A stretch of DNA of 64,000 bases from an uncultured Pelagibacteraceae bacterium (GCA_902594405.1 CACJMB010000005.1:11657-75656), one strand, 5' to 3'. Numbered from the stretch's first letter, positions 3-20,093 are shown. Made by a program: numbers and translations. The notes: generated by a model not told the origin, from the letters alone.

Positions 3-2087
3 ACATTATTAGATATTCCACTTTTAAATAATTCAGAAGCTCCCCTTCAAGAAAGACTAGAAAGTTTCAAAACGTTAAAAGATGAAGATGTTGATAGAGA
101 GCGAGGTTTTAAAGAAATTTTAAATAGTCCTGTTTTTCGAAATTTTGTCATCAGCGAAGATGGTAAAACTAGTGGAATTATTGTTAACATTAAACAGTCT
201 CAAAAATTAGAAGATATAGAAAATAAATCAAAAGAAGAAGTTGAGCTAATTAAAGATCAAATCAAAAAACAAAACCACCAGAATATTTTAGAAATAAGAC
301 AAGTTATTCAAAGTTATGGTGATGTTGGAAAGATTTATCTTGGAGGAATACCAATGATTGCTGATGATATGATGACTTTTATCAAAAGTGATATAATTGT
401 TTTTGGCTTAGGAGTTCTATTATTTATAATTGCTACTTTATGGTTTGTTTTTAGAAATCTTCTTTGGATTGTGGTTCCTATAAGCAGTTGTCTTTTTTCT
501 GTGATAATAATGATGGGATTGCTTGGATTGCTAGGATGGAAAGTTACAGTCATTTCATCAAATTTCATTGCACTTATGTTGATTTTAACAATGGCAATGA
601 ATATTCATATGAGTACTAGGTTTCTTCAACTTAAAAAAGATTTTCCATCAAAAAATAATTTTGAAATTATTTCCTTAACAACTTCAAAAATGTTTTGGCC
701 AATTCTTTATACCGTTCTAACAACAATATTTGCATTCTTATCTTTAATTTTTAGTGAAATAAAACCTATTATTGATTTTGGTTGGATGATGACTTTTGGT
801 TTGATTACATCATTTATCATTACATTTACTTTACTGCCTACCCTTTTAAACTTTGCACCCACAAATAATATTTCAGTGAAGAAAGAACAAAAATCTAAAA
901 TTACAAATTTACTTAGTTTAATTTCTATAAATAATAAAAATTCTATATTCTTAGTAACTGGAATAGTTATAATATTCAGTATTACTGGAATAAGTAAGCT
1001 TGAAGTTGAAAATAGCTTTATAAATTACTTTGATAAGAATACTGAAATTTACAAGGGTATGAAGCTTATTGATGAGGAACTAGGTGGAACCACTCCTTTA
1101 GAGGTTATTTTAAAATTTCCTGAGAAAGAAAAGGTGAAAAAATCTGAAGAAGATGATGAGTTTGAGGATTGGGGTGATGAAGAAGATGCTAATGATGAAA
1201 AATACTGGTTTACCAAAGATAAAATTGATCTAATTACATCTGTTCATAATTACTTAGATAGCTTACCTGAAATTGGCAAAGTTCTATCTTTTTCATCTAT
1301 TATTGAGGTTGCTACTCAATTAAATAATAATAAGCCTTTAGGCACTTTAGAAATGGGAGTGCTTTACTCTAAAATTCCAGAGAGCATTAAAACTGAAATC
1401 ATTGATCCCTATCTTTCAATTAAAGAAAATGAGGCTCGAATTAGTTTAAGAATTATAGACTCGCAGGAAAATTTAAGAAGAAATGACCTAATTAACAAAA
1501 TTAATTTTGATCTTAAAGATAAATTTGGTTTAGAGGATAAGGATTATAAATTAGCAGGTGTATTAATATTGTTTAATAATTTATTGCAAAGTCTGTTTAA
1601 ATCTCAAATTTTAACATTGGGATTGGTTATGATTGGAATATTTTCAATGTTCATAATCTTATTTAGAAATATTAAACTTTCATTGATTGGTGTTGTTCCA
1701 AATTTTATTGCTGCTTTTTTTATACTAGGAATAATTGGATTGTTGGGAATACCTTTAGATATGATGACTATAACTATTGCAGCAATCACAATAGGAATTG
1801 CTGTAGATAACAGCATTCATTATATTTACAGATTTAAAGAAGAATTTAATAAAATAAAGGATTATAACAAAACATTAAAAACATGTCATTCAACTGTTGG
1901 GGTTGCTATACTAAACACTTCAATTACGATTGTTTTTGGATTTTCAATTTTGGTGTTATCAAAGTTTATCCCAACAATTTATTTTGGTGTGTTTACTGGG
2001 CTAGCAATGTTATTAGCTATGATATCGGTATTAACACTACTTCCTGCATTAATTTTAATTATTAAACCTTTTGGCAAATCATCTTAA
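3..2087 (+). CDS. MMPL/RND-family membrane transporter (5'-truncated by window edge)
   Basis: The frame of ORF 354..2087 stays open back to position 3. Two multi-TM blocks are separated by a soluble loop, with a GIAVDNSIH motif in the second block. Confidence 0.85.
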   Translation, partial: TLLDIPLLNNSEAPLQERLESFKTLKDEDVDRERGFKEILNSPVFRNFVISEDGKTSGIIVNIKQSQKLEDIENKSKEEVELIKDQIKKQNHQNILEIRQVIQSYGDVGKIYLGGIPMIADDMMTFIKSDIIVFGLGVLLFIIATLWFVFRNLLWIVVPISSCLFSVIIMMGLLGLLGWKVTVISSNFIALMLILTMAMNIHMSTRFLQLKKDFPSKNNFEIISLTTSKMFWPILYTVLTTIFAFLSLIFSEIKPIIDFGWMMTFGLITSFIITFTLLPTLLNFAPTNNISVKKEQKSKITNLLSLISINNKNSIFLVTGIVIIFSITGISKLEVENSFINYFDKNTEIYKGMKLIDEELGGTTPLEVILKFPEKEKVKKSEEDDEFEDWGDEEDANDEKYWFTKDKIDLITSVHNYLDSLPEIGKVLSFSSIIEVATQLNNNKPLGTLEMGVLYSKIPESIKTEIIDPYLSIKENEARISLRIIDSQENLRRNDLINKINFDLKDKFGLEDKDYKLAGVLILFNNLLQSLFKSQILTLGLVMIGIFSMFIILFRNIKLSLIGVVPNFIAAFFILGIIGLLGIPLDMMTITIAAITIGIAVDNSIHYIYRFKEEFNKIKDYNKTLKTCHSTVGVAILNTSITIVFGFSILVLSKFIPTIYFGVFTGLAMLLAMISVLTLLPALILIIKPFGKSS

Positions 2088-2632
2088 TGTTGGAAATCAT
2101 ACAAGATTTTTATAAAGCAATATCAATAATTGATTTAATTTATTTAATTTTAACAATCCTTTCTTTAATAAATTGTTACAAAAAGGGCTTCATTTTAAGT
2201 ATTCTCTCAATGGCTAAATGGTTGCTGGCTTACATAATTACATTAATTCTATTTCCAAAAATTAAACCTTATGTAAAAGATATAATTGATAATGAGTATG
2301 TACTCGATGTTAGTTTAGGAATACTAATATTTGTAGTTGTTATATTTTTGGTTTTATTAGTTAATAAAGGAATCAGCAAAGCAGTCAGATATACGGGAAT
2401 CGGTGGCTTAGATACGACATTTGGATTCTTTTTTGGTTTTATAAGAGCTTACATTATTTCTGTTTGTATCTTTTCAGGTGTTCATATCGTTTATAATTAT
2501 GATAAATGGCCAATAAATTTTGACAAATCATACGTCTTTCCATATTTAGAAAAAGGTAGTAGTTATCTGATAAAAGAATTTCCTAATGAAAAAACATATC
2601 AAGATTCTAAAGAAAAAATTACAGAGCTATAA
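2087..2632 (+). CDS. cvpA: Colicin V production protein CvpA family
   Basis: Hydrophobic 181 aa protein with GLDTTFGFFFGFIRA (the LDRxLGxxFG-like motif), directly upstream of purF. Confidence 0.85.
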   Translation: MLEIIQDFYKAISIIDLIYLILTILSLINCYKKGFILSILSMAKWLLAYIITLILFPKIKPYVKDIIDNEYVLDVSLGILIFVVVIFLVLLVNKGISKAVRYTGIGGLDTTFGFFFGFIRAYIISVCIFSGVHIVYNYDKWPINFDKSYVFPYLEKGSSYLIKEFPNEKTYQDSKEKITEL

Positions 2633-4067
2633 TCCAAGACTTAAGGAAGAATGTGGAGTTTTTGGTATTAGCAATGCAAAAGATGCTTCAGCTCTAACAG
2701 CACTTGGACTACACGCTCTACAACACAGAGGTCAAGAAGGTTGTGGAATAGTTACTTTTGATGGGGAAAAATATTATTCTGAAAAAAGATTTGGTTTGGT
2801 TGGTGACAATTTCAACAAAGAAAAAGTGCTTAATAATCTTAAGGGAAATTATGCAATTGGTCATAACAGATACAGTACGACTGGAAACAATATATTAAGA
2901 AACATCCAGCCTTTTTTTGCTGACACCAATGCCGGTGGAATTGGAGTTGCACACAATGGAAATCTTACTAATTCAATAGCTTTAAGAAATAAACTAGTTG
3001 AAGATGGAGCTATATTTTACACTACCTCAGATACTGAAACGATTGTTCAATTAATTGCTAAATCAAAGAGACCAAAGACAATTGATAAAGTAATTGATGC
3101 AATTTTTCAAATTCAAGGTGGCTATGCATTAGTAATGTTAACTCAAAACTCTTTAATTGGAGTTAGAGATCCTTATGGAATTAGACCATTAGTAATTGGT
3201 AAGCTTGGCAATAGTTATGTCTTAGCATCTGAAACCTGTGCATTTGACATTATTGGTGCTAAATTTGTTAGAGAAGTTGAAAATGGTGAGATAGTTTTAA
3301 TTGAAAATAATGAGCTGAAAAGCATTAAACCCTTCCCCGCTAAAAAAGTTAGACCTTGTGTATTTGAGTATATTTATTTTTCAAGACCAGACAGTTTAAT
3401 AGGTGGAAAAACAGCTTATGAGCATAGAAAAAATATTGGTAGAGAGCTAGCAAAAGAAAATGATACTGATGCTGATATAGTTGTTCCAGTCCCAGACTCT
3501 GGAAATGCTGCTGCTATGGGTTTTGCTCAAGAATTAAAAATGAATTTTGAACATGGATTAATTAGAAATCATTATGTTGGAAGAACTTTCATAGAGCCAA
3601 GCCAAAAAATTAGGAGCTTGGGTGTCAAATTAAAATTAAATGCCAATCAAACAACAATAAAAAATAAAAAAATAATTCTAATTGATGACTCTCTTGTTCG
3701 AGGAACAACGTCATACAAAATTGTTAAAATGCTTTATGATGCTGGTGCAAAAGAGGTTCATGTTAAAATTGCATGCCCTGAAATAAGATATCCAGATTTT
3801 TATGGCGTAGACACACCTACTAAAAAAGAATTGCTAGCAGCAAATAAAACAAATGATGAAATTTGTGAATATATTGGAGCTAAATCTTTGAGATTTTTAT
3901 CAATAGAGGGATTGTATAAAGCTATTGGTTTTGAAAAAAGAAACGAAACATATCCACAATTAACAGATCATTATTTCACAGGTGAATATCCTGTTAAATT
4001 AGTAGATGAATTAGGCGATAATAAAATAACTCAATTATCTTTACTAAGTACTGGATCAAATAATTAA
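2586..4067 (+). CDS. purF: Amidophosphoribosyltransferase
   Basis: EECGVFG (mature N-terminal Cys), QHRGQE, GHNRYST and the PRPP-binding LIDDSLVRGTT motif. Confidence 0.97.
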   Translation: MKKHIKILKKKLQSYNPRLKEECGVFGISNAKDASALTALGLHALQHRGQEGCGIVTFDGEKYYSEKRFGLVGDNFNKEKVLNNLKGNYAIGHNRYSTTGNNILRNIQPFFADTNAGGIGVAHNGNLTNSIALRNKLVEDGAIFYTTSDTETIVQLIAKSKRPKTIDKVIDAIFQIQGGYALVMLTQNSLIGVRDPYGIRPLVIGKLGNSYVLASETCAFDIIGAKFVREVENGEIVLIENNELKSIKPFPAKKVRPCVFEYIYFSRPDSLIGGKTAYEHRKNIGRELAKENDTDADIVVPVPDSGNAAAMGFAQELKMNFEHGLIRNHYVGRTFIEPSQKIRSLGVKLKLNANQTTIKNKKIILIDDSLVRGTTSYKIVKMLYDAGAKEVHVKIACPEIRYPDFYGVDTPTKKELLAANKTNDEICEYIGAKSLRFLSIEGLYKAIGFEKRNETYPQLTDHYFTGEYPVKLVDELGDNKITQLSLLSTGSNN

Positions 4068-4070
4068 GTT

Positions 4071-4628
4071 ATGAAAACAGTTAATTTTACTGAAATGAAA
4101 AATGGAACTAAGGAAGATTATGAGCTTCTTGAAAAATTTGAAAAAAACTTTGAAAGACAAACAGCTGAGAGAGTTTTAAATTATTTATCTAAACAAACTA
4201 CTACTTTAGAAGGTTACAAAATCACTAGACTAGAACACTCCTTACAAGCTGCAACAAGAGCTTTTAAAAATAAAGAAAGTGATGAAATGGTTGTTGCAAC
4301 TTTATTACATGATATTGGAGATGATTTGGCACCAATGAATCATTCTCAATATGCTGCATCTATACTAAGACCTTATGTTTCAGAAAGAACTTATTGGATT
4401 GTTTTACACCATGGTCTTTTTCAAACTTACTACAGCGCTCACCATTTAGGTGGTGACAGAAATGCAAGAGATAAATTTAAAGACCACAAGTATTATCAAG
4501 ACACGATAGATTTTTGTGAAAAATATGACCAATGCTCTTTTGACCCTGATTATAAAAGTATGACTTTGGATGATTTTAAGCCATTAGTTAAAAAAATATT
4601 CGCAAAAGAGCCTTATTATTATCTTTAA
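4071..4628 (+). CDS. HD-domain metalloprotein (PhnZ/TmpB-like di-iron subfamily)
   Basis: RLEHSLQAA, LLHDIGD, NHSQ, LHHG and YDQ metal-ligand pattern. Confidence 0.75.
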   Translation: MKTVNFTEMKNGTKEDYELLEKFEKNFERQTAERVLNYLSKQTTTLEGYKITRLEHSLQAATRAFKNKESDEMVVATLLHDIGDDLAPMNHSQYAASILRPYVSERTYWIVLHHGLFQTYYSAHHLGGDRNARDKFKDHKYYQDTIDFCEKYDQCSFDPDYKSMTLDDFKPLVKKIFAKEPYYYL

Positions 4629-4657
4629 ATTTAGGTATAAATCACTACTTACAGCGC

Positions 4658-5953
4658 ATGATTGATTCAAAAGAGAAAATTATAAATTATTTTAAATCAG
4701 GTATTAAGGAACCCAAAAATTTCAAAATTGGGATCGAGCATGAAAAGTTTTTATTTAATAATTCGGACAATAAAAGAATTGATTATTCAAAAATAAAAGA
4801 AATGTTTACAGCACTGCTTGAATTTGGCTGGAATCCAGTTTTTGAAAAAGAAAATATCATTGCTCTTAATAAAGGTGGAAAAAATATAACTCTTGAACCA
4901 GGTAATCAAATAGAATTATCAGGAGATAAATTAAATCATATGCACGAAGCTTGTGCAGAATCACAAGACTATTTGTTTGAATTAAAACAAGTTACAAAAA
5001 AACTAGATATAAAAATAGTCAGCGCAGGTTTCGATCCTATATCTAAATTAAATGAAATCCCAAACAATCCTAAACAAAGATATGAATTGATGACTAAGGA
5101 TATGCCTCTAGGTGGTGAACTTAGTTTGGATATGATGTATCGAACATGTGGCACTCAGTTAAATATAGATTATAGCTCAGAAGAAGATTTTATTAAAAAG
5201 TTTAGAGTAGCAAACTCAATAGTGCCTATTGCAATCGCTTTATTTGCGAATTCCTCAATTGTAGAGAAAAAAAATAGCAACTATTTATCTTATAGATCTA
5301 AAGTATGGCAAAGCACTTCTAGAGGTGGATTGCCTAAATTATTTTTCGAAAAAATGAATTTTGAAAAATATGCAGATTTTGTAATTAATTTTCCTATATT
5401 ATTTATACAACATAAAGATCAGTATATCTCAGGTAGGAAATATATTTTTAAGGATTTTATGGAAGGAAAAATTCAAGAAATTGCAAATAGACTTCCAACT
5501 GAAGCAGACTTAACAACTCACTTAAGTACAATATTTACTGAAAACAGAGTTAAGAAATATATTGAATTGAGATCAATGGATACCTGTGGTTGGGATTGTT
5601 TATGTGCAGGACCAGCTTTCAATATAGGCATGCTTTATGGGAATTTAGATGAAGTTCATGAACTAATTTCAACATGGGACAACGATAAAATAATTAATGC
5701 CTATTTAGAGGCACCAAAAAAAGGATTTAATACTCAATTAATGGGTAAAGATCTTCTTTATTGGTCATCTACACTTTTAGACCTTTCAAGAAAAGGTTTA
5801 GAGAATAGAGATGTTTTAAGTAAAAAAGGTAATAACGAGACTGTATTCCTAAACCATCTACAAAAAGTAATTGATAATAAGACAACAAACGCAGATCATA
5901 TGATTAGTAAATTTTCAAAAAACGAAAATTTAGACGAATTGTATGATAAATAA
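4658..5953 (+). CDS. gshA: Glutamate--cysteine ligase (alphaproteobacterial/plant type)
   Basis: IGIEHEKF, TLEPGNQIELSG, MMYRTCGTQLNID and YIELRSMD motifs; adjacent to gshB. Confidence 0.93.
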   Translation: MIDSKEKIINYFKSGIKEPKNFKIGIEHEKFLFNNSDNKRIDYSKIKEMFTALLEFGWNPVFEKENIIALNKGGKNITLEPGNQIELSGDKLNHMHEACAESQDYLFELKQVTKKLDIKIVSAGFDPISKLNEIPNNPKQRYELMTKDMPLGGELSLDMMYRTCGTQLNIDYSSEEDFIKKFRVANSIVPIAIALFANSSIVEKKNSNYLSYRSKVWQSTSRGGLPKLFFEKMNFEKYADFVINFPILFIQHKDQYISGRKYIFKDFMEGKIQEIANRLPTEADLTTHLSTIFTENRVKKYIELRSMDTCGWDCLCAGPAFNIGMLYGNLDEVHELISTWDNDKIINAYLEAPKKGFNTQLMGKDLLYWSSTLLDLSRKGLENRDVLSKKGNNETVFLNHLQKVIDNKTTNADHMISKFSKNENLDELYDK

Positions 5954-11457: not shown

Positions 11458-12282
11458 ATGACTTATCTATCTTCAAATCAACTTAAACAGTATGAAGATC
11501 AAGGTTATATATCCCCTATTGAAGTTTTGTCTAGTCGTGAAGCATTAGAGACAAGAGAAGAAATAGAATTAATTGAAAAAAAAATGCCAAATGAAATAGA
11601 TAAGTCGGGAAGATATAATGTTCATTTAATTTCTCCAAAACTTGATTCGATCGTTCATAATTCTAAAATTTTAGATGCTGTAGAAAGTATTATCGGAAAA
11701 AATATCTTAGTTTGTAGCACTACTTTATTTATTAAAAACCCTAACGAGCAAGGTTTTGTAAGCTATCACCAAGATGCAAAGTACATAGGATTAGAGCCTC
11801 ACAATTGGGTCACAGCATGGGTCGCATTAACAGACTCGAATGAAAACAACGGGTGTATGAAAATGTGGCCTAAATCACATTTAAATATTAAAGATCACAA
11901 TGAGAAATTTAATGAAGGCAACTTGCTTACTCGAGGACAAACAGTAGAGAATGTACCTGAGGACAAAGTTAAGTCTATAGAACTAAAAGCTGGTCAAATG
12001 TCTTTGCATCATCCAAGAATAGTCCATGGGTCAGGAATAAATAAGAGTAATGATAGAAGAATAGGATTTGTTATTCAAAGTTATATAGGGACAAACGTAA
12101 AACAAACCTTAGGTAAAAATGGTGTTCAAGTTGCAAGAGGAGAGGATAAATACCATCATCATGAAATTATAAATAGAACTAATGCTTTAATGAGTGAAGA
12201 AAGTATTTTACTTCGAAAAAAAGAAAATGATTATTTGCAGGAAATTTTTTATAAAGGTGCAAAACAAAAAGGATCTTACTAG
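11458..12282 (+). CDS. Phytanoyl-CoA dioxygenase (PhyH)-family Fe(II)/2-oxoglutarate dioxygenase
   Basis: FIK...YHQD (HxD) motif, distal His in IVHGS, and conserved Arg in DRRIG. Confidence 0.9.
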   Translation: MTYLSSNQLKQYEDQGYISPIEVLSSREALETREEIELIEKKMPNEIDKSGRYNVHLISPKLDSIVHNSKILDAVESIIGKNILVCSTTLFIKNPNEQGFVSYHQDAKYIGLEPHNWVTAWVALTDSNENNGCMKMWPKSHLNIKDHNEKFNEGNLLTRGQTVENVPEDKVKSIELKAGQMSLHHPRIVHGSGINKSNDRRIGFVIQSYIGTNVKQTLGKNGVQVARGEDKYHHHEIINRTNALMSEESILLRKKENDYLQEIFYKGAKQKGSY

Positions 12283-12285
12283 TTT

Positions 12286-13296
12286 ATGAAAAAAGCACTT
12301 AACCTTGGAGTAATCGGAATAGATCATGGTCATATTTTCGATATGCTAGATGAAATGATTAAAGAAGGTTGTAGCTGTAATTATTTTTGGACAGATGGAG
12401 ATCCTTTAACTCTTAAAGAATTTAATAAAAAATATCCAAATATTAAAAGAAAAGAAAATAAAGAGGAAATATTAAATGACTCATCTATTGATATGATTTT
12501 AATATCTTCAATCCCTGTAGATAGAGCTGGTCATTCAATAGACGCATTAAAAGCTGGTAAAGATGTTATGGTAGATAAACCAGGCTGTACTACCTTAGAT
12601 CAGTTAAATAATTTAAAAAACGTTGTTAAAGAAACTGGAAAGATATGGTCTGTAAATTTTTCTGAAAGATTTCACGTTGCTGCAGTTGCTAAAGCTGAAG
12701 AATTAGTCAATGAGGGAAAAATTGGTAAAGTAAAGCAAACGATTGGTACAGGTCCCCATAGACAGGGTAATTATGAAAGACCTGATTGGTTTTATAATCG
12801 TCAAAGTTATGGAGGAATTATTACCGATATTGGTTCTCACCAAATTCATCAATTTTTGGTTTTTACAAATTCAAATCAAGCAAAAATCAACCATGCATTA
12901 GTAGAAAATACTACAAAGAAAGATATGCCTGGTTTTCAAGATTTTGGCGAAGTGAACCTTACTGGTAATGGTGGGCATGGTTATATTCGCCTAGATTGGT
13001 TTACTCCAGATGCCCTTCCAACCTGGGGAGATGGCAGATTGTTAATCCTTGGAGACAAAGGTTTTATTGAAATAAGAAAATATACAGACCTAGCAAAATC
13101 AGAAAAAGGTAATCATTTATTTTTAGCAAATAATGATGAGGTGAAGCATATTGATTGTTCTAATGTTAAACTACCCTACTTTAGCAATTTAATTACTGAT
13201 GTTTTAAACAGAACAGAAACTGCATGTCCTCAAGATCTTACTTATCTTTCAATGGAACTTGCTATTAAAGCTCAAGAGCAAGCCGAAAAAAAATGA
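12286..13296 (+). CDS. Gfo/Idh/MocA-family oxidoreductase
   Basis: Rossmann GVIGIDHGH, GKDVMVDKPG and DIGSHQI motifs. Confidence 0.9.
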   Translation: MKKALNLGVIGIDHGHIFDMLDEMIKEGCSCNYFWTDGDPLTLKEFNKKYPNIKRKENKEEILNDSSIDMILISSIPVDRAGHSIDALKAGKDVMVDKPGCTTLDQLNNLKNVVKETGKIWSVNFSERFHVAAVAKAEELVNEGKIGKVKQTIGTGPHRQGNYERPDWFYNRQSYGGIITDIGSHQIHQFLVFTNSNQAKINHALVENTTKKDMPGFQDFGEVNLTGNGGHGYIRLDWFTPDALPTWGDGRLLILGDKGFIEIRKYTDLAKSEKGNHLFLANNDEVKHIDCSNVKLPYFSNLITDVLNRTETACPQDLTYLSMELAIKAQEQAEKK

Positions 13297-14372
13297 AAAA
13301 ATATCAAGTTGCAATAATTGGTACCAATATAGGGGCAAAACATTTTGAAGATTTTCAAAAAGTATCTGAGAGATTTAGTATTCACACATTATGTGGTTTA
13401 ACTCGGGAGGCTATTGATAAAATATTACAATTAAATACTGAGACAAAAGTTTCTCTAAATTTTGATGATGTATTAAAAGTTAAAGAAATTGATATTATTG
13501 ATATTTGTCTCCCACCCCATTTACATTTTTCTGCTTGTAAAAAAGCTATAGAAGCTGGAAAGCATGTGATTTGTGAAAAACCATTAGTTTCAAGTCTTAA
13601 AGAAATAGATGAATTAGAAAAAATTAGCAAAGAAACTGGCAAAATTATTTTTCCAGTATTTCAATATCGATATGGTCTAGGATTTTCAAAATTAAAAGCA
13701 TTGATCAAATCTGGTTTAGCAGGAAACCCTTTGGTTGCTTCTTTAGAAACTCATTGGAATAGAGGTAAAGATTATTATTCAAAACCTTGGAGAGGAACTT
13801 GGGAAGGTGAACAAGGTGGGGCAATTTTAAGTCACTCTATTCATATTCATGATTTAGTTAGTATGATCCTGGGGCCTGTCTCAAATATTTTTGCAAAATT
13901 AACAACTAGAGTAAATGATATTGAAGTTGAAGATTGTGCAGCTCTTTCTATTGAAATGGAAAACGGCACATTAGTTACAAGTTCAATTACATTGGGTGCA
14001 GCAAATGATACGAGTAGACTTCGATTTTGTTTTGAAGGGTTAACAGCTGAGTCTGGTGCATCACCAGATAAACCATATAGTCCAGCTGATGATAAATGGG
14101 ACTTTTTACCAAGAGCACCTATAACTCAAGCTCAAATAGATGAAGTGCTATCAAAGGTAAAAGAACCAAAATCATGGTATGCAGGTATGTTTGAAGAAAT
14201 TGCTAATAAACTAGATGGATATCCTAGTGATGAAGTAACTTTATCAGATGCTAGAAAATCTCTAGAATTTGTAACCGCTGTGTATGATTCTTCTAGACAA
14301 AATAAGAATATTAAACTTCCAATTAATAAAGATAATCCTTTATATAATTCTTGGTTACCTTTAAATAATTAA
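13293..14372 (+). CDS. Gfo/Idh/MocA-family oxidoreductase
   Basis: GKHVICEKPL, EQGGAILSHSIHIHD and EVED motifs. Confidence 0.9.
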   Translation: MKKYQVAIIGTNIGAKHFEDFQKVSERFSIHTLCGLTREAIDKILQLNTETKVSLNFDDVLKVKEIDIIDICLPPHLHFSACKKAIEAGKHVICEKPLVSSLKEIDELEKISKETGKIIFPVFQYRYGLGFSKLKALIKSGLAGNPLVASLETHWNRGKDYYSKPWRGTWEGEQGGAILSHSIHIHDLVSMILGPVSNIFAKLTTRVNDIEVEDCAALSIEMENGTLVTSSITLGAANDTSRLRFCFEGLTAESGASPDKPYSPADDKWDFLPRAPITQAQIDEVLSKVKEPKSWYAGMFEEIANKLDGYPSDEVTLSDARKSLEFVTAVYDSSRQNKNIKLPINKDNPLYNSWLPLNN

Positions 14373-14374
14373 AC

Positions 14375-14842
14375 ATGTCAGATTCAAATAAAGCACCAAA
14401 CGATTTTTTTGATAATTGGAATAAAATCCAATCAATGTCGTATAAAAATGTCATTGAGCTACTTGTAAAGAGAAGTAGTGAAAAAAAGATATTAGCTTTA
14501 ATTCAATTTGAATTAGATCAATTTTCAGAAAATGTTCAAAAGGATTTGACTATTTCAGAAACAAGTTCTTTCTATCAAGAAATATCTAATCTTTTCAGAG
14601 ATTCAAACTGGTGGTCAACCGCTACAGTAACAGATGCTTGTAAATATTACTTAAACTGTGCAAGAAATAATATTTCTTATTTTAAAAACTATGTGGAGGC
14701 AGATAGTGATTTGTCTCAAAATCAAAAAAATGAGATATTTGCTTTATATCAATTGTGCACTTTATTTGTTTCTTGGAATGCCAGTAAAGACAAACAAATC
14801 AGAGAAATTATAGATATTAGAAAAAGTTTATTTTTTAGATAA
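14375..14842 (+). CDS. Hypothetical protein, 155 aa
   Basis: Clean ORF starting 2 nt after the upstream stop; no motif recognised. Confidence 0.6.
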   Translation: MSDSNKAPNDFFDNWNKIQSMSYKNVIELLVKRSSEKKILALIQFELDQFSENVQKDLTISETSSFYQEISNLFRDSNWWSTATVTDACKYYLNCARNNISYFKNYVEADSDLSQNQKNEIFALYQLCTLFVSWNASKDKQIREIIDIRKSLFFR

Positions 14843-14850
14843 AACTAAAC

Positions 14851-14913
14851 TGTATGAACAAAGAAAACGCAAGTAAACTCTGGAAAATTATTCAGGATGC
14901 TGGCGATTATTTG
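14851..14913 (+). repeat. 63-bp direct repeat, left copy (partner at 18821..18883)
   Basis: 61 of 63 positions are identical by manual alignment; mismatches at 14859/18829 and 14898/18868. Confidence 0.95.
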
Positions 14914-14922
14914 GGGTGCTAG
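14854..14922 (+). pseudogene. Truncated duplicate (22 codons) of the 5' end of the 75-aa gene at 18824
   Basis: Reads MNKENASKLWKIIQDAGDYL-GC-stop, versus MNKENASKLWKIIQEAGDYLLG at 18824. Confidence 0.85.
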
Positions 14923-14930
14923 TGGTACAC

Positions 14931-14965
14931 CCTACCTGACACTACCTCACACTACTTCACACTAG
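14931..14965 (+). repeat. Imperfect 10-bp tandem repeats (cctacctgac actacctcac actacttcac actag)
   Basis: Read directly from the sequence; 10-nt period, 3 to 3.5 units. Confidence 0.75.
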
Positions 14966-15030
14966 CTATGCGGACTATTTAATTTTCATCAAAAATAATT
15001 TGCTTAAAGACTCATCAATTTAAGCAATAA

Positions 15031-15067
15031 ACTAGTCCCCAAACTAGAACATATTGAGATAAATCAA
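15031..15067 (+). repeat. Repeat R1 (37 bp) ACTAGTCCCCAAACTAGAACATATTGAGATAAATCAA
   Basis: One of three near-identical intergenic copies (15031, 16989, 18774). Confidence 0.95.
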
Positions 15068-15121
15068 ATAGCCATTTTTAAGTAATTAGACTCTCTATTT
15101 ATGATTTGGTAATCTTGGATC

Positions 15122-16423
15122 ATGAGCTTAAGTACTGAACTTAAAAAAAAAATTGCTAGAGTAAAACTTAAAGAGTCAGGAACATTTGTTTCTATTTATG
15201 CAGGAGATCTTATTTATGATATCTTGCGCGTTGATCCTAGAGTCGTAGATGGTGTTGATTTTCTTCGAAAAGATGATTTGTCCAGTGTATTAAAGTTTGG
15301 AAAACAAGAGATTGCAGATAGAGCAGAAAAATCAAAAGAATCTTTATCTGGATTACATGACAGTTACACTGGATACACTTTTGAAAGAGTTGTTGCCTTG
15401 GATTTTCAACAGAGAGGTTCTGAAGTTCAATTCCCAAATTCAGCTCAACAATCTGGTCATGATCTTGTAATTAATGGTGAAAAGTTTCAAGTAAAGACCC
15501 AGGGGGACGGTATAGATATAATTGAGAGACATTTTGAAAAATATCCAAACATTAGAGTAATTGCAAACAGTGAAGCTCATGAAAAGTTTATAGAAAAGTA
15601 TCCTGAAAAAGCACATTTGGTTATGAATAGTGGATTTAGCCACGATCAAACTGAAAACCTGGTTAAAGAAAGTACAGACGCAGCTGTGGAAGTATTTGAA
15701 GACAATAATTTATTTGGAAGTGCAATTCCTGAAATACTTGGAATCGTTTCAATTATTTCTATTGGAAAAAATTTTATGAATTGGGCAGAGGGAAATACAA
15801 ATGTTGAGACAGCATTAAAAAATGTTGCAATCGATAGTGTAGGAAAATTTGCAGGAGCTGGAGTAGGTGCAAAATTAGGTTCTTTTATACTGCCACCTTT
15901 TGGAACTATAGTTGGTGGCACACTAGGATTTGTTTTTGGTGGCAACTTAGCTAATGAATATAAAATTGATAATTACTGCAAATATGAAATGGAAAATTTA
16001 GATAAAGCAATTGATGATTATTTAAAAAAAAGTGAGGAGATAATAAGTAAAAATAATAAAAATTTTGAAAAGAAAGTAAAATATTTAACCGAAAAATTAA
16101 AAAATAAAAAAGGTGAAAGAGCTAGAGAGTTTGAATTATTTATTAATAAAAAAATTTTAAGAGAAAGAAAAGATAAACAAGGAATTCTAAATACACTTAG
16201 AAAATATTTTAAAAAATCTAGACGAGGTATCGAAAAATTTGAGGAACTATCTAAGAAATTTAAAGATAAGACTAGTTCAACGAAATATAATCATTACGCA
16301 CTAGAAGCATTAAATTTGTCAGCAGAAAATGGCGTTATGCCAGAGTTTATCCCTTTCGAAGCAGATAATTTATTTGATAAAGTTAAGAAATTTATGGAAG
16401 CAGCAAAAAAACACGGTGTTTAA
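15122..16423 (+). CDS. Hypothetical protein with putative PD-(D/E)xK-like nuclease motif, glycine-zipper TM segment and Lys/Glu-rich C-terminus
   Basis: GYTFERVV...GHDLVINGEKFQVKT (E...D...QxK) followed by AGAGVGAKLGSFILPPFGTIVGGTLGFVFGG. The nuclease call is inferred from the motif only. Confidence 0.55.
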   Translation: MSLSTELKKKIARVKLKESGTFVSIYAGDLIYDILRVDPRVVDGVDFLRKDDLSSVLKFGKQEIADRAEKSKESLSGLHDSYTGYTFERVVALDFQQRGSEVQFPNSAQQSGHDLVINGEKFQVKTQGDGIDIIERHFEKYPNIRVIANSEAHEKFIEKYPEKAHLVMNSGFSHDQTENLVKESTDAAVEVFEDNNLFGSAIPEILGIVSIISIGKNFMNWAEGNTNVETALKNVAIDSVGKFAGAGVGAKLGSFILPPFGTIVGGTLGFVFGGNLANEYKIDNYCKYEMENLDKAIDDYLKKSEEIISKNNKNFEKKVKYLTEKLKNKKGERAREFELFINKKILRERKDKQGILNTLRKYFKKSRRGIEKFEELSKKFKDKTSSTKYNHYALEALNLSAENGVMPEFIPFEADNLFDKVKKFMEAAKKHGV

Positions 16424-16429
16424 AATAAG

Positions 16430-16771
16430 ATGTTTAATTGGATTAAAAGTAAAATCTCTAAAAAAATTAATTCAGAAATGGATGGATGCATTTTGCAAAA
16501 TCTTAATTTTGTAAATATGGTTGAGAAGGAACAATATATTTTTAAGAAAAATATTGACCAGACTATAATGAATCGAATTTATGAGATCAAAGAACAAACT
16601 GAAAAATATGATAAAATTAAAAAAGCTGGTGATAACTTTACCCCTAAAGAAACAGATGATTTGTTGGAAATGAATATGCATTGTAGAAACATTTGGAAAA
16701 CTTATTTTAATAAAACCGCTTTTGAGTTTGATAAAATATTTTCAAGTGATGATCTTGACAGTGATAACTAG
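16430..16771 (+). CDS. Hypothetical protein, 113 aa
   Basis: ORF begins 6 nt after the upstream stop on the same strand. Confidence 0.6.
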   Translation: MFNWIKSKISKKINSEMDGCILQNLNFVNMVEKEQYIFKKNIDQTIMNRIYEIKEQTEKYDKIKKAGDNFTPKETDDLLEMNMHCRNIWKTYFNKTAFEFDKIFSSDDLDSDN

Positions 16772-16791
16772 AGTATCTAACCTAATTAAGT

Positions 16792-16971
16792 ATGACAAAT
16801 TGGCAAATAATTTTAGCGATTATAATTGTTGGATTGTCAATTGTTATGCCAATTTACTATTCTCAAAAAAGAAAGAAAGAAAATCAAACCAAACAAGAAG
16901 CAATTGAGCGTATGCAAATTCGAGAATATGGTAGAAAAATAAACGACGAAACTAGAGCAAAGAAAAAATAA
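16792..16971 (+). CDS. Small single-pass membrane protein, 59 aa (not in the ORF track)
   Basis: Manual translation MTNWQIILAIIIVGLSIVMPIYYSQKRKKENQTKQEAIERMQIREYGRKINDETRAKKK: a hydrophobic N-terminus followed by a basic tail. Confidence 0.7.
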   Translation: MTNWQIILAIIIVGLSIVMPIYYSQKRKKENQTKQEAIERMQIREYGRKINDETRAKKK

Positions 16972-16988
16972 ATTAAATTTTATTGAAA

Positions 16989-17025
16989 ACTATTCCCCAA
17001 ACTAGAACATTTAGAGATAAATCAA
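16989..17025 (+). repeat. Repeat R2 (37 bp) ACTATTCCCCAAACTAGAACATTTAGAGATAAATCAA
   Basis: Second copy of R, lying between cassette A and the SDR-TetR cassette. Confidence 0.95.
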
Positions 17026-17054
17026 AATAGTAATTTATATCAAAATAAGTATTT

Positions 17055-17101
17055 GTCAACAGTTGTTGATAAAATAATAATATAAGTCAACAGTTGTTGA
17101 C
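17055..17101. promoter_or_regulatory. Two palindromic operator candidates GTCAACA-GT-TGTTGA(T/C) at 17055..17070 and 17086..17101
   Basis: The second copy is a perfect 7-2-7 inverted repeat. Both lie upstream of the SDR gene that is paired with a TetR gene. Confidence 0.75.
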
Positions 17102-17147
17102 TCTTTAAATAATAACTTCTAAATTTTATCTAAAAAAAGGAGCAATT

Positions 17148-18101
17148 ATGAAAAATGAAAATAAAAATATGAGTCGAAGACAAGCAATTAAGGGAATTGG
17201 TGCAGTAGCATTAGGTACCACAGCATTAGCAGCTTCAAGTACTGCTAAAGCGAATGAAAAAAAAACAAAAAAAGAACTTGAAGGAAAAACAGCTCTGATC
17301 ACAGGTGGAGCACGTGGCATTGGTTTGGCTAGTGCTGAAGAGCTTGCAAAAGCAGGAGCAAATATCGTTCTTTTTGATGTAGCAAGTGATTTAGAGGGTG
17401 TAAATTATCCTTTGGCCACTGATTTAGATCTAGCAAATGCAAAAAGTAAAGTAGAGTCTTATGGTGTTAAATGTATTTCTTATAAAGGAGATGTAAGAGA
17501 TAGATCTGCCCTATCAGATGCTGTTGGTATGGCTGTTAAGCAGTTTGGAACATTAGATCATGTTGTAGCAAATGCAGGAGTAACACAAATTGGAATGATG
17601 GAATATTTCAGTGAAAAAGAAATTCAAACTGTAATTGATATAAATGTGACTGGAGTTGTGAAAACTATACAAGCTTCTATACCAGTTATGAGAAAACAAA
17701 ATTCTGGGGGAATAACTATTTTATCTTCAGTTTTAGGACGTATGGGTGAAGAGTGGTTTCCAGTTTATTCTGGTACCAAGTGGGCTGTAATTGGATTAGC
17801 AAAAAGTACCGCTTTAATTATGGGAAAGCATAACGTTACTTGCAATGCTATATGTCCAACTGTTGTAAAAACTAAACTCATGAACAATAAATATGTTCTA
17901 GGAGCAATGTCTCCTGAAAACCCAACATGGGAAGGTTTAGAAACGTTAATGAAACAATGGAGAAACCCTCTTCCAATGGGAGCATATAACCCTAATGAGA
18001 TTGGTGAAATGGTTAAATTCTTTGCTAGTAAAAGTGGTGAAAAAATTACTGGTGAAGTTCTAGGAGTAGCAGCAGGTTTATTTGCTCGGAATACTGCTTA
18101 A
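17148..18101 (+). CDS. SDR oxidoreductase with Tat signal peptide, resembling the mycofactocin-associated/carveol dehydrogenase SDR subfamily
   Basis: SRRQAIKG twin-arginine motif plus hydrophobic stretch and AKA cleavage site; TGGARGIG, VVANAG and YSGTK motifs; the DVASDLEGVNYPLATDLDLA insert. Confidence 0.8.
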   Translation: MKNENKNMSRRQAIKGIGAVALGTTALAASSTAKANEKKTKKELEGKTALITGGARGIGLASAEELAKAGANIVLFDVASDLEGVNYPLATDLDLANAKSKVESYGVKCISYKGDVRDRSALSDAVGMAVKQFGTLDHVVANAGVTQIGMMEYFSEKEIQTVIDINVTGVVKTIQASIPVMRKQNSGGITILSSVLGRMGEEWFPVYSGTKWAVIGLAKSTALIMGKHNVTCNAICPTVVKTKLMNNKYVLGAMSPENPTWEGLETLMKQWRNPLPMGAYNPNEIGEMVKFFASKSGEKITGEVLGVAAGLFARNTA

Positions 18102-18159
18102 ATATTCTTCCTCTCGGATCAATCTTTAAGACCCTATTTGAATTGATCTAAAAAACTAT

Positions 18160-18190
18160 AAGTCACCTTGTATTTATTATAAGGTGACTT
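18160..18190. promoter_or_regulatory. 10-bp inverted repeat AAGTCACCTT-N11-AAGGTGACTT upstream of tetR (operator or hairpin)
   Basis: Perfect inverted repeat in the SDR-TetR intergenic space. Confidence 0.55.
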
Positions 18191-18208
18191 GTTATATTTT
18201 TTTAAAAG

Positions 18209-18754
18209 ATGAGAAATTCAAATAATTCAAAAAAAATAATTTTTAATACTGCTAAAAAGCTTTTCTGGACGAAAGGTTATTCAAATGTTTCAGTTCGAGA
18301 TATTGCCAAACAATCTAAATATGACATCGCTCTTATCTCTAGGTACTTCGGCAGTAAGAAAAAGCTTTTTGAAGAAACATTAAAAGATGTTGCAGAATGG
18401 TTTGTTGATGTAAATCCAAATAATATTGTTGATTTTATGGTTGAAGGCCTAATGGAAAATTCAAATCCAAAAGATGATGTAAACCTTGTTAGAATGCTGT
18501 GTATGAATTCTGGTGATCCAGAAGTTGGACATATAGTCAAAAAATTTCATAGAGAAAAAATGAGAAAACCAGTAATTGATGGGATAAGGAAAAAAATTAA
18601 ACCTATCAATTACGATTTAATGGGTGCAATTTTAGTAGGGGTTTCTGTTGCACGAAAAACTCTCGACAATCCTATTTTAAGCAAACTGAATGATAGAGAA
18701 TATGAAAAGATATTAAGGCATTTATTTAATGCAGCGTTAAATTATAAAAACTAA
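18209..18754 (+). CDS. TetR/AcrR-family transcriptional regulator
   Basis: N-terminal HTH: IFNTAKKLFWTKGYSNVSVRDIAKQSKYDIALISRYFGSKKKLF. Confidence 0.92.
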   Translation: MRNSNNSKKIIFNTAKKLFWTKGYSNVSVRDIAKQSKYDIALISRYFGSKKKLFEETLKDVAEWFVDVNPNNIVDFMVEGLMENSNPKDDVNLVRMLCMNSGDPEVGHIVKKFHREKMRKPVIDGIRKKIKPINYDLMGAILVGVSVARKTLDNPILSKLNDREYEKILRHLFNAALNYKN

Positions 18755-18773
18755 TTATAGGATTTTATGGGAT

Positions 18774-18810
18774 ACTAGTCCCCAAACTAGAACATTTGGA
18801 GATAAAACAA
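18774..18810 (+). repeat. Repeat R3 (37 bp) ACTAGTCCCCAAACTAGAACATTTGGAGATAAAACAA
   Basis: Third copy of R, ending 13 nt before the ATG at 18824. Confidence 0.95.
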
Positions 18811-18823
18811 GAATTTAGGTTGT

Positions 18824-19051
18824 ATGAATAAAGAAAACGCAAGTAAACTCTGGAAAATTATTCAGGAAGCTGGCGATTATTTGTTGGGGCAATTACCTGA
18901 TCACCCAAATCACCCCAAAGGAAGAAACCCCTATGCTCATGTTGCTATTTGTGTGAAGAGTAAGTTTAACGCAAGTTATAAAGACATTCCTGATGAACAA
19001 TATGATGAAGTGATAAAATATATTGAGTTTTTAAAAGAAAATCCTAGTTAG
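18824..19051 (+). CDS. Small hypothetical protein, 75 aa (apparent integration target)
   Basis: Intact ORF whose first 20 codons are duplicated at 14854. Confidence 0.75.
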   Translation: MNKENASKLWKIIQEAGDYLLGQLPDHPNHPKGRNPYAHVAICVKSKFNASYKDIPDEQYDEVIKYIEFLKENPS

Positions 19052-20093
19052 CTTTAATTATATCTAACAATTCGTCAACATCACTATCTTTAGTATTCCA
19101 AGCAGCAACTAATCTTACCGCTTTACCATCTAATTCTTCTTCATTCATTTTATAACCTTCAGAATTTAGATGTTCTATTTTTTCTCTTGGAAATTTTGCA
19201 AAAACTTCATTTGCTTCTGTTGGATAAGCAATTTCAATATCATTATACTTACTTAGACCATCACTTAATTTTTTACCCATAGCATTGGCATGTTTTGCAT
19301 TTCTTAACCAAACATCATTTGAAATGTATGCATCGAGTTGAGCAGAAACAAAACGCATTTTAGATAATAAGTGCCCTGCTCTTTTCATTAAAAAAGTAAT
19401 GTCTCCAACTAATTCTTTCTTAAAAAAAATGATTGCTTCAGCTGCTAAACATCCATTTTTAGTTGCGCCAAATGACAATACATCAACCCCTGATTTCCAT
19501 GTCATTTCAGCAGGAGTAACATCTAAAGAAACCAATGCATTAGCAAATCTTGCTCCATCCATATGTAAATTTAAATTATGTTTATGAGTGATTTCTGCAA
19601 TTTTTTTGATTTCATCTAATTGGTAAACTTCACCTGTTTCACACACTTGAGTGATACTGACTGATGAAGGTTGTGTATGATGAACAATCCCTTTTCCCCC
19701 AATAGATTGATCTAACTCCTCTGCAGTTATTTTTCCCATTACCCCATTTAATGTAACTAACTTTCCTCCTCCTGTATAAAATTCAGGTGCACCACATTCA
19801 TCAGTATTTATATGGGACATCTTATGACAATAAATGTTTCCATAAGAAGGTGTCATTGTAGATAATGCTAAAGCATTAGCAGCTGTTCCTGATGCAGTAG
19901 GAAATACAATTACTTCTTTTTCAAATATTTCTGAAAACTTGTCTTGTAATTCAGTTGATATTGGGTCATTCCCATAAGGAGTACTATCTCCCTCATTGGC
20001 TTTTAAAATTGCATCTAATACTTCAGGACAAGCACCAGCAACATTATCAGAAGCGAATTTAACTCGCTCTCTTTTTATTTTAATTTTTGCCAT
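19044..20093 (-). CDS. ltaE: Low-specificity L-threonine aldolase (PLP)
   Basis: FASDN, SGTAANAL, LHMDGARFANA and the PLP-lysine motif SFGATKNG. Confidence 0.88.
   Translation of the reverse strand: MAKIKIKRERVKFASDNVAGACPEVLDAILKANEGDSTPYGNDPISTELQDKFSEIFEKEVIVFPTASGTAANALALSTMTPSYGNIYCHKMSHINTDECGAPEFYTGGGKLVTLNGVMGKITAEELDQSIGGKGIVHHTQPSSVSITQVCETGEVYQLDEIKKIAEITHKHNLNLHMDGARFANALVSLDVTPAEMTWKSGVDVLSFGATKNGCLAAEAIIFFKKELVGDITFLMKRAGHLLSKMRFVSAQLDAYISNDVWLRNAKHANAMGKKLSDGLSKYNDIEIAYPTEANEVFAKFPREKIEHLNSEGYKMNEEELDGKAVRLVAAWNTKDSDVDELLDIIKAN

What the first reader, a model, noticed from the sequence alone, without database searches (positions are those of the whole stretch)
14851..19051. 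Integrase-less, repeat-delimited gene-cassette array (three 37-bp R repeats)
Seen: three intergenic copies of ACTA(G/T)TCCCCAAACTAGAACAT-N3-GAGATAAA(T/A)CAA at 15031, 16989 and 18774, all in the same orientation and spaced 1958 and 1785 bp. Each sits just upstream of a self-contained unit: cassette A (433/113/59-aa orphans), cassette B (Tat-SDR + TetR with its own operators) and the small target gene. I found the repeat nowhere else in the window. R has an internal 12-nt periodicity (ACTAG-N7-ACTAG), like tandem protein-binding sites. Established: integrons and tandem-accreting islands leave one recombination site per captured cassette, and tyrosine integrases use tandem arm-type sites. Inference: this locus is a site-specific cassette-capture hotspot served by a recombinase in trans, which I do not recognise as a described SAR11 system.
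Basis: partly seen in the sequence, partly recalled or inferred. Interest (0 to 1): 0.9.

Follow-up and report, generated by a model that had tools for sequence, protein, structure and literature searches.

The report
Integrase-less gene cassettes in SAR11
The three repeats are real: they are the flanking integrase-binding-type repeats of attachment sites left by a family of small mobile elements that insert into the start of a tiny conserved SAR11 gene, and the two gene cassettes between them have kept the sites but carry no integrase.

Summary
R occurs three times (15031, 16989, 18774), and none is expected by chance.

R is not a stand-alone cassette boundary. It belongs to a conserved ~230-nt module: R, 13 nt, the first 60 nt of the 75-aa gene ("G5"), a 10-nt tandem array, a leader, then R again.

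In related contigs the second R lies inside codons 5-17 of a 570-aa tyrosine integrase. That integrase sits on a ~9.1-kb circular or concatemeric element that also encodes a primase-helicase. The module is therefore an attP.

The window island (14851-18883) is bounded by a 63-nt G5 repeat (attL/attR), and the 64-kb window encodes no such integrase.

Across 129 SAR11 loci:
- Cargo differs between cassettes and is rich in defence genes.
- The two R copies bounding one cassette share a lineage-specific "barcode"; neighbouring cassettes do not.
- The barcode changes together with the integrase N-terminal domain.
- An integrase element carrying exactly the window's barcode exists.
- Empty sites exist.
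- In metagenomes, depth steps occur at R1, R2 and R3.

R2 looks like a scar from a deletion between R copies that fused two cassettes.

Verdict: a hitchhiker cassette array of a tyrosine-integrase element family.

The parts
14851..14913 (+). Left copy of the 5' end of the 75-aa gene (G5; attL core side). It forms a truncated 22-codon ORF, 14854-14922.
   Evidence: 63-nt direct repeat, 97% identical to 18821-18883. The same fragment precedes the module in 62 related modules.
14927..14967 (+). Tandem array of ACTA[CG]-N5 units at a 10-nt period (the 'CACT' array), next to the inferred crossover. It is a candidate site for a directionality factor or for core-proximal binding.
   Evidence: Coordinates. 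The array is conserved in position and varies in concert between lineages; L052 and L060 have GTTGAGT repeats instead.
14968..15030 (+). Leader ('SP'). It is colinear with the region upstream of the integrase gene plus its first four codons in integrase-bearing elements.
   Evidence: Module alignment: G5-to-R spacing is 177 nt in 44 of 62 modules, both with and without integrase.
15031..15067 (+). R1, the P'-arm-type R. It has two half-sites, ACTAGTCCCC and ACTAGAACAT, followed by GAGATAAATCAA.
   Evidence: It has R(2)-type context: SP upstream and T at position 34.
15068..16988 (+). Cassette A, with ORFs 15122-16423 (433 aa), 16430-16771 (113 aa) and 16792-16971 (59 aa).
   Evidence: only weak or no family matches. 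Metagenome contig depth is about 10-60, against 3,000-37,000 on the flanks.
16989..17025 (+). R2, an orphan hybrid R. Its first half-site is mutated (ACTAT).
   Evidence: Its left context resembles R(1)-type and its right side is R(2)-type, identical to the L002 leader of cassette B. Similar lone R copies occur in L070, L073 and L082.
17026..18773 (+). Cassette B. It contains two TetR-type palindromic operators (17050-17069 and 17081-17100), an SDR with a Tat-like signal (17148-18101), a terminator hairpin (18158-18192) and TetR (18209-18754).
   Evidence: It is 96% identical to L002, where it is the only cassette. Metagenome depth is about 400-5,500.
18774..18810 (+). R3, the P-arm-type R. 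It ends 13 nt upstream of the start codon of the 75-aa gene.
   Evidence: It has R(1)-type context: ATAGGATTTTATGGGAT upstream and A at position 34.
18821..19051 (+). Right G5 copy (18821-18883, attR core side) inside the intact 75-aa target gene (18824-19051).
   Evidence: The gene is a conserved Pelagibacter hypothetical protein with 5,669 clusters. In empty sites it directly follows the upstream gene with no R.

Best explanation
The region 14851-18883 is an integrated, integrase-less mobile island. It sits in the attachment site of a family of about 9-kb SAR11 integrative elements.

These elements encode a 567-577-aa tyrosine integrase and an AEP-primase/D5-type helicase. They insert into the first ~60 nt of a conserved 75-aa gene and bring a replacement copy of that 5' end (G5).

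Their attP reads: R(1), 13 nt, G5, a 10-nt tandem array, a leader, then R(2). R(2) overlaps integrase codons 5-17.

R is a block of two or three direct half-sites, ACTAG plus a 4-5-nt lineage-specific barcode, present on both arms. I infer that these are arm-type sites read by the integrase N-terminal domain.

Many derivatives have lost the integrase and every other element gene but keep the complete att module around 0.5-6 kb of cargo. The window holds two of them with the same barcode, A and B.

I infer that A and B first lay in tandem. The G5-array-leader segment between them was then lost by recombination between the two flanking R copies, leaving R2.

I infer that excision and integration need a matching integrase supplied in trans or from a neighbouring element. 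That integrase exists (L140/L141) but is not in this window.

Shown here: the anatomy, its homology to attP, empty sites, variable cargo, barcode matching, and barcode/N-domain co-variation. Inferred: protein binding to R, the exact crossover point, and present-day mobility.
For: 1. R occurs only at such loci. The genome-collection scan found it in 9 Pelagibacteraceae SAG/MAG contigs, all at this locus. A metagenome scan gave 120 further loci.

2. The module is conserved. G5-to-R(2) spacing is 177-178 nt in 55 of 62 modules, and in 17 of them R(2) lies inside the start of the integrase ORF.

3. The protein is an integrase. It matches PHROG_1 'integrase' at E=1.3e-21. Its AF2 model matches Tn1549 Int, XerA, lambda Int and Cre at probability 1.00.

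4. L034 repeats with a period of 9,116 bp. Its order is att module, int, small ORFs, primase-helicase, RusA-like gene and a 285-aa ORF. Many family contigs are about 9.1 or 18.3 kb long.

5. Empty sites exist. In L134-L137 PhyH, 17 nt and the gene follow each other with no R within 10 kb. One metagenome contig joins 14844 to 18823.

6. Barcodes match within cassettes. The two R copies bounding one cargo differ by a median of 1 of 17 variable nt, and 38 of 47 pairs differ by 2 or fewer. R copies across a junction differ by a median of 7, and only 1 of 29 pairs by 2 or fewer (p=1.5e-9).

7. The L034 barcode 9-mer occurs only in the att module, five times, all in one orientation.

8. The N-terminal domain follows the barcode. 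Among integrase pairs at least 90% identical in the catalytic domain, N-domain identity is 98% with the same barcode (n=101) and 63% with different barcodes (n=240).

9. L140 and L141 carry an integrase whose R(1) and R(2) half-sites are those of the window.

10. No integrase is detectable in the window by tblastn or by a family HMM.

11. Metagenome depth steps fall at R1, R2 and R3.

12. The same arms occur around a second, unrelated core sequence.
Against: - No excised circle or concatemer of an integrase-less cassette was seen. Only assembled contigs were available, not reads.
- The integrase N-terminal 345 aa match no known arm-binding domain.
- The barcode is encoded in codons 5-21, next to the N-domain. 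Their co-variation could therefore be physical linkage rather than recognition.
- Matching barcodes at both ends of a cassette could partly reflect common descent.
- The fixed 36-nt spacing from R(2) to the first cargo ORF, and the 68:18 bias in cargo orientation, also fit an expression role for R.
Confidence: 0.72

Rival explanations
1. This is the integron-like reading, the first reader's. R itself is the recombination site, one per cassette. A trans recombinase inserts and removes R-bounded cassettes.
For: Cassettes are separated by a lone R in the window (R2) and in L070, L073 and L082. L002 lacks exactly cassette A plus one R. Depth steps coincide with R.
Against: - 29 junctions keep the full R-G5-array-leader-R module, against a handful of lone R copies.
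- attP and empty attB share G5, not R.
- R flanks G5 on both arms in direct orientation, and one copy lies inside the integrase ORF.
- Lone R copies are hybrids of the two context types and occur between cassettes with the same barcode. That is what a deletion between two repeats would give.
- There is no IntI-type gene and no conserved attC-like palindrome.
Confidence: 0.1
2. R is primarily a promoter or operator that each cassette carries. Cassettes are shuffled by ordinary homologous recombination at these repeats and in the flanks, with no dedicated recombinase acting today.
For: - The first cargo ORF often starts exactly 36 nt after R(2), behind a conserved leader, and cargo is mostly co-oriented.
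- After integration, R(1) plus 13 nt is all that lies upstream of the 75-aa gene.
- That gene is the most deeply covered stretch in four metatranscriptome contig sets.
Against: - R contains no sigma-70-type match.
- In autonomous elements R(2) is inside the integrase coding sequence, where it cannot be that gene's promoter.
- RNA contigs run through R rather than starting in it.
- The barcodes diverge between lineages yet match within a cassette, and they track the integrase N-domain.
- A regulatory role could coexist with the arm-site role.
Confidence: 0.1
3. The array is only a fossil: decayed remnants of old integrations that are no longer mobile. Strain differences would come from lineage sorting and deletions.
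For: There is no integrase in the window. Truncated integrase fragments exist in other loci: L026, L045 and L129. No circles were observed.
Against: - 45 integrase-less modules with unrelated cargo keep the whole ~230-nt module and matching barcodes.
- They share a derived leader, which implies spread of a cassette platform rather than independent decay.
- The same cargo families occur behind different barcodes.
- Cassette frequencies differ about 100-fold within single metagenomes.
Confidence: 0.08

Closest known systems
Cis-mobilizable elements (CIMEs) of ICEs
   Same: These islands have lost their integration and transfer genes but keep intact attL and attR (definition in PMC6323972). They lie in tandem with related autonomous elements at the same target and are thought to move using the neighbour's integrase.
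   Different: The helper here is a ~9-kb integrase and primase-helicase element, not a conjugative element. The cassettes are very small (0.5-6 kb) and numerous, and each carries both arms of attP with a lineage-specific barcode. Mobilisation was not tested.
Marine VEIME phage satellites and Pelagibacter tyrosine-recombinase elements (PMC9618062, PMC11876622)
   Same: The integrase-bearing relatives resemble these: about 9 kb, a tyrosine integrase, a primase/helicase, periodic or concatemer-like contigs, and a Pelagibacter host.
   Different: I could not test identity with a named VEIME module. Those papers, as far as I read them, do not describe this att architecture, the 75-aa gene target, or integrase-less cassettes.
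Tycheposons of Prochlorococcus (bioRxiv 10.1101/2020.12.28.424599)
   Same: Successive integrations at one site build an island. Partial copies of the target separate the elements, degenerate remnants are present, and cargo is carried.
   Different: The target here is the 5' end of a protein-coding gene, not a tRNA. Relatedness of the integrases was not tested. The preprint does not mention SAR11.
Integrons
   Same: An array of small, mostly co-oriented, exchangeable gene cassettes at one chromosomal site, dependent on a tyrosine recombinase.
   Different: There is no adjacent IntI/attI platform and no attC hairpins. The cassettes carry lambda-type att modules with direct-repeat arms, and the recombinase is on a separate mobile element.
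Lambda-type attP with arm-type sites
   Same: Several direct-repeat sites lie on both sides of a core, next to or overlapping the int gene. The integrase has an extra N-terminal domain.
   Different: The N-domain matches no known arm-binding family. The arm sites diversify into many specificity classes that swap together with the N-domain.

Membership tests
Integron | An IntI-type integrase gene with an adjacent attI and Pc at the head of the array | tested here: not met
   The window has no integrase homologue by tblastn or by a family HMM against 106 ORFs. The neighbours are PhyH, oxidoreductases and an aldolase.
Integron | attC sites: imperfect inverted repeats that fold as hairpins, one per cassette | tested here: not met
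   R is built of direct repeats. The module as a whole folds only moderately better than shuffles (z=-2.8), and no conserved palindrome appears across loci.
Tyrosine-integrase integrative element with arm-type sites | Encodes a tyrosine recombinase | tested here: met
   This holds for the relatives, not the window: PHROG_1 at E=1.3e-21, Pfam Phage_integrase below threshold at E=8.9e-5, and a fold match to Tn1549, XerA, lambda and Cre recombinases.
Tyrosine-integrase integrative element with arm-type sites | The integrated form is flanked by direct repeats of the target (attL/attR), and empty target sites exist | tested here: met
   A 63-nt G5 repeat brackets the island. Empty sites are L134-L137 and the contig joint 14844 to 18823.
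Tyrosine-integrase integrative element with arm-type sites | A circular form carrying attP | tested here: inconclusive
   L034 is periodic at 9,116 bp and family contigs cluster at about 9.1 and 18.3 kb. No such form was seen for the window's integrase-less cassettes.
Tyrosine-integrase integrative element with arm-type sites | Repeated arm sites on both sides of the core, bound by the integrase N-domain | tested here: inconclusive
   The arrangement fits, as does the barcode/N-domain co-variation. Binding cannot be tested here, and the N-domain matches no known arm-binding family.
CIME (cis-mobilizable element) | Lacks integration and transfer genes but keeps intact attL and attR | tested here: met
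   The window module fits the consensus of integrase-less modules.
CIME (cis-mobilizable element) | Mobilised by a related autonomous element that uses the same att site | not testable with these tools
   A cognate element exists (L140/L141), and mixed arrays exist (L125). Movement itself was not observed.
VEIME / phage satellite | A small integrative element with integrase and replication genes, packaged as concatemers in virions | tested here: inconclusive
   Gene content and periodic contigs fit. Only 2 IMG/VR contigs were found and no INPHARED record. Packaging cannot be tested here.
Tycheposon | Integration at tRNA genes | tested here: not met
   The window has no tRNA. The target is the 5' end of the 75-aa gene, and a second target is also not a tRNA.

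The most novel reading that the evidence does not exclude
SAR11 runs a barcoded cassette economy. Hundreds of integrase-less mini-elements each carry a complete attP. The arm-site barcode of each attP assigns it to one of many helper-integrase specificity classes, and those classes arise by swapping the integrase N-terminal domain. Small defence and metabolic cassettes would then be captured, stacked, fused and exchanged at the start of one tiny core gene, and at one or more further sites. This would be functionally integron-like but built from lambda-type att sites, in an organism thought to be nearly free of mobile elements.
Probability: 0.4. Interest if true: 0.85.

Novelty: new variant of a known kind. 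Interest (0 to 1): 0.72.

Why it matters
SAR11 is the most abundant bacterial group in the ocean. A recent pangenome study reported no canonical mobile elements in its genomic islands and only one integrase (PMC11796062).

This locus gives a concrete, sequence-defined mechanism for small flexible islands in SAR11. It has a named target gene, a named integrase family, and recognisable att modules that can be searched for in any genome or read set. The cargo is rich in restriction-modification and helicase or nuclease genes, so the site is probably a hotspot for exchange of phage defence.

The barcode and N-domain pairing would be a natural set of orthogonal integrase specificities. The question of how streamlined genomes exchange genes becomes directly testable, through recombination assays and long-read searches for circles.

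Tried and rejected
- **Viral hit:** the only viral-contig hit to the R core (L001) lies inside a coding sequence and is a chance match.
- **RNA families:** Rfam found nothing in 14000-19500.
- **Promoters:** the sigma-70 scan found no more sites than shuffles and none in R.
- **tRNA target:** there is none in the window.
- **Window proteins:** PADLOC and NCBIfam gave no credible match for the 433-, 113-, 59-, 155- and 75-aa products.
- **The 75-aa protein:** it models as a three-helix bundle (pLDDT 89) with no significant PDB fold match, so its function stays unknown.
- **Integrase N-terminus:** the N-terminal 345 aa match no Pfam arm-binding domain.
- **Phage records:** no INPHARED record encodes the integrase.
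- **Crossover mapping:** using polymorphisms inside G5 to place the crossover was not informative, because G5 variants are not strictly linked to barcodes.
- **Transcription starts:** RNA contigs cannot locate them.


Full report
**Observation**

The 37-nt pattern matches at 15031, 16989 and 18774, all on the + strand. With up to three mismatches allowed there are no other matches in the 64 kb, and shuffles gave none. The copies are intergenic and each precedes a separate gene set.

The repeat finder also shows a 63-nt direct repeat, 97% identical, at 14851-14913 and 18821-18883. It is the 5' end of the 75-aa gene (18824-19051), duplicated 3,970 nt upstream, where it forms a 22-codon stump.

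Two more features lie between that stump and R1. One is an array of ACTA[CG]-N5 units at a 10-nt period (14927-14967). The other is a 63-nt leader (14968-15030).

**Distribution**

A scan of one genome per species (185,579 species) found the R core in nine contigs. All are Pelagibacteraceae SAGs or MAGs, and all hits are at this same locus next to the 75-aa gene.

R is therefore neither a general promoter motif nor a dispersed repeat.

**Anatomy across loci**

R is part of a conserved module: R(1), 13 nt, G5 (the first 60 nt of the gene), the tandem array, the leader, then R(2). G5-to-R(2) spacing is 177-178 nt in 55 of 62 modules.

In 17 modules R(2) lies inside codons 5-17 of a 567-577-aa ORF, and a third half-site follows in a different reading frame. 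The repeat is therefore a DNA-level signal rather than a coding constraint.

That ORF is a tyrosine integrase:
- It matches PHROG_1 at E=1.3e-21. Its Pfam Phage_integrase match is below threshold.
- Its AF2 model (pLDDT 75) matches Tn1549 Int, XerA, lambda Int and Cre at probability 1.00.

L034 repeats with a period of 9,116 bp. It carries, in order, the att module, int, small ORFs, an 894-aa AEP-primase/D5-type helicase, a RusA/PDDEXK-like protein and a 285-aa ORF with a weak Cox-like hit.

The integrase family has 331 clusters, some named 'site-specific integrase [Pelagibacterales]'. Many of its contigs are about 9.1 or 18.3 kb long.

The module is therefore the attP of a small integrative, probably replicative element.

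**The window island**

The window has the same module split around cargo: G5, array, leader, R1, cassette A, R2, cassette B, R3, G5 and the rest of the gene. That is, attL and attR with no integrase.

Neither tblastn with all L034 proteins nor a family HMM against 106 window ORFs finds an integrase.

**Empty sites**

In L134-L137 the PhyH gene is followed after 17 nt by the 75-aa gene, with no R within 10 kb. L131 and L133 also lack R. R is therefore brought by the elements and is not native to the gene.

One metagenome contig joins 14844 to 18823 with 8 nt in between. This is the empty site in the window's own context.

**Cassettes are discrete units with barcodes**

Forty-seven R-bounded cassettes of 0.46-6 kb carry mostly unrelated cargo: 321 protein families among 563 ORFs. 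Cargo ORFs run 68:18 in the + orientation.

Cargo includes:
- type I and type IIG restriction-modification genes, an EcoRI-type methylase, and Mrr, HNH and UvrD/GajB-like proteins;
- metabolic genes such as the SDR/TetR pair.

The variable part of R (ACTAG plus 4-5 nt, twice) differs between lineages but matches between the two R copies that bound one cargo:
- Within a cassette, the median difference is 1 of 17 nt, and 38 of 47 pairs differ by 2 or fewer.
- Across a junction module, the median is 7, and only 1 of 29 pairs differs by 2 or fewer (p=1.5e-9).

In L034 the barcode 9-mer occurs five times, only in the att module and all in one orientation. Some elements have a further half-site 56 nt upstream of R(1).

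**Link to the integrase**

Because R(2) is coded in the integrase N-terminus, the barcode can be read from protein sequences. Among integrase pairs at least 90% identical in the catalytic domain, residues 31-135 are 98% identical when the barcode is the same (n=101). They are 63% identical when it differs (n=240). The N-domain and the barcode therefore swap together.

This fits arm-type recognition. Because the two are adjacent in the DNA, it does not prove it. The N-domain matches no known family.

Integrases whose N-terminus reads KLVPKLEQV predict the window's barcode. Their DNA (L140, L141) shows:
- R(1) = ACTAGTCCCCAAACTAGAACATTTAGAGATAGATCAT
- R(2) = ACTAGTCCCCAAACTAGAACAAGTTAAGATAAAACAAACTAGTCCC.

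A cognate helper therefore exists in nature.

**R2**

R copies fall into two context classes. R(1)-type has ATAGGATTTTATAGGATAA upstream, mostly A at position 34, and G5 downstream. R(2)-type has the leader upstream and mostly T at position 34.

R2 has an R(1)-like left side and an R(2)-type right side. The right side is identical to the cassette-B leader of L002, where B is the only cassette. The first half-site of R2 is mutated.

Similar lone hybrid R copies occur in L070, L073 and L082, and L073 carries cassette B in another array.

The simplest account is two same-barcode cassettes in tandem, followed by loss of the ~190-nt G5-array-leader segment through recombination between the flanking R copies. 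Whether that step is homologous or integrase-mediated is unknown.

**Populations**

In four marine metagenomes (assembled contigs, so depths are approximate), the flanks have word depths of 3,000-37,000. Cassette B has about 400-5,500 and cassette A about 10-60. The steps fall in the bins that hold R1, R2 and R3.

Metatranscriptome contigs cover cassette B, the att module and, most deeply, the 75-aa gene. They run through R, so they do not locate a transcription start.

**What R does**

The best-supported reading is that R is a block of arm-type integrase sites on both arms of attP.

A second, compatible role in expression is possible. R(1) plus 13 nt is all that precedes the target gene after integration, and many cargo ORFs start 36 nt after R(2), behind a conserved leader. 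However, R contains no sigma-70-type match.

The crossover is inferred to lie at the 3' end of G5, where attP-attB homology ends. It was not mapped.

The same arms also surround a second, unrelated core sequence in L041, L044, L066, L092, L103 and L120. This argues that R is an accessory arm element rather than target homology.

**Comparison with the known**

The autonomous relatives fit what has been reported broadly for Pelagibacter: tyrosine-recombinase plus primase/helicase elements and VEIME satellites (PMC9618062, PMC11876622).

The build-up of the array resembles tycheposon islands (bioRxiv 10.1101/2020.12.28.424599). The target, though, is a protein-coding gene and not a tRNA.

The integrase-less cassettes meet the definition of CIMEs: att sites kept, integration genes lost (PMC6323972).

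They are not integron cassettes. There is no IntI/attI platform and no attC hairpin.

I found no description of this att architecture, of the barcodes, or of the cassette platform in the papers searched. A SAR11 pangenome study states that its islands held no canonical mobile elements (PMC11796062).

**Limits**

- Loci were ascertained through R itself.
- Only contigs, not reads, were available.
- Binding, crossover position and present-day mobility are inferences.

Noticed in passing
window 12286-14842: Three genes (336 aa, a 359-aa GFO/IDH/MocA oxidoreductase and a 155-aa orphan) lie between PhyH (11458-12282) and the left G5 copy. They are absent in L004 and L134-L136, where PhyH abuts G5 or the gene. 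Their metagenome depth is about one third of the right flank. There is no R or G5 scar at their left edge, so this variable block has another origin.
   Followed up: partly
window 19044-20093 (-): The 349-aa Beta_elim_lyase gene (threonine-aldolase-like) overlaps the stop of the 75-aa gene by 8 nt. It is missing in L002, L003, L031 and L134, where the 371-aa gene follows directly. This is a second small presence/absence difference on the other side of the target gene.
   Followed up: no
window 18824-19051: The 75-aa target gene is an abundant, strongly conserved Pelagibacter protein of unknown function (5,669 clusters). It models as a three-helix bundle with no PDB match. It is the most deeply covered stretch of the region in four metatranscriptome contig sets. 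Its first ~20 codons are supplied by whichever element integrated last.
   Followed up: partly
L041:2261, L044:1593, L066:1426, L092:949, L103:1794, L120:1586 (oriented as): Here R(1) is followed not by G5 but by a different ~75-nt segment (gtttctgatgtaagtttgtttgaataagcg...aaggcgcttaaatta). That segment continues either into chromosome with a hairpin or into the tandem array and leader. It looks like a second target site used by the same kind of att arms.
   Followed up: partly
window 17050-17100 and 18158-18192: Two copies of the palindrome TCAACAGTTGTTGA lie upstream of the SDR gene and are likely TetR operators. A 15-bp-stem terminator hairpin lies between the SDR and TetR genes.
   Followed up: no
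window 15122-16423; L091: The 433-aa product of cassette A has a glycine-zipper segment and a lysine-rich C-terminal half predicted to be helical. A 445-aa relative sits in the opposite orientation in another cassette with the same barcode (L091). No defence-family match was found.
   Followed up: partly
L052, L060: In these modules the ACTA[CG]-N5 tandem array is replaced by GTTGAGT-type repeats at the same place and period, while R keeps ACTAG. The array therefore probably has its own binding protein, separate from the one that reads R.
   Followed up: no
L026, L045, L129, L069: Truncated integrase ORFs of 74-102 aa occur here. One 561-aa ORF shares only the first 176 aa with the integrase. 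These look like stages of integrase decay or replacement inside arrays.
   Followed up: no
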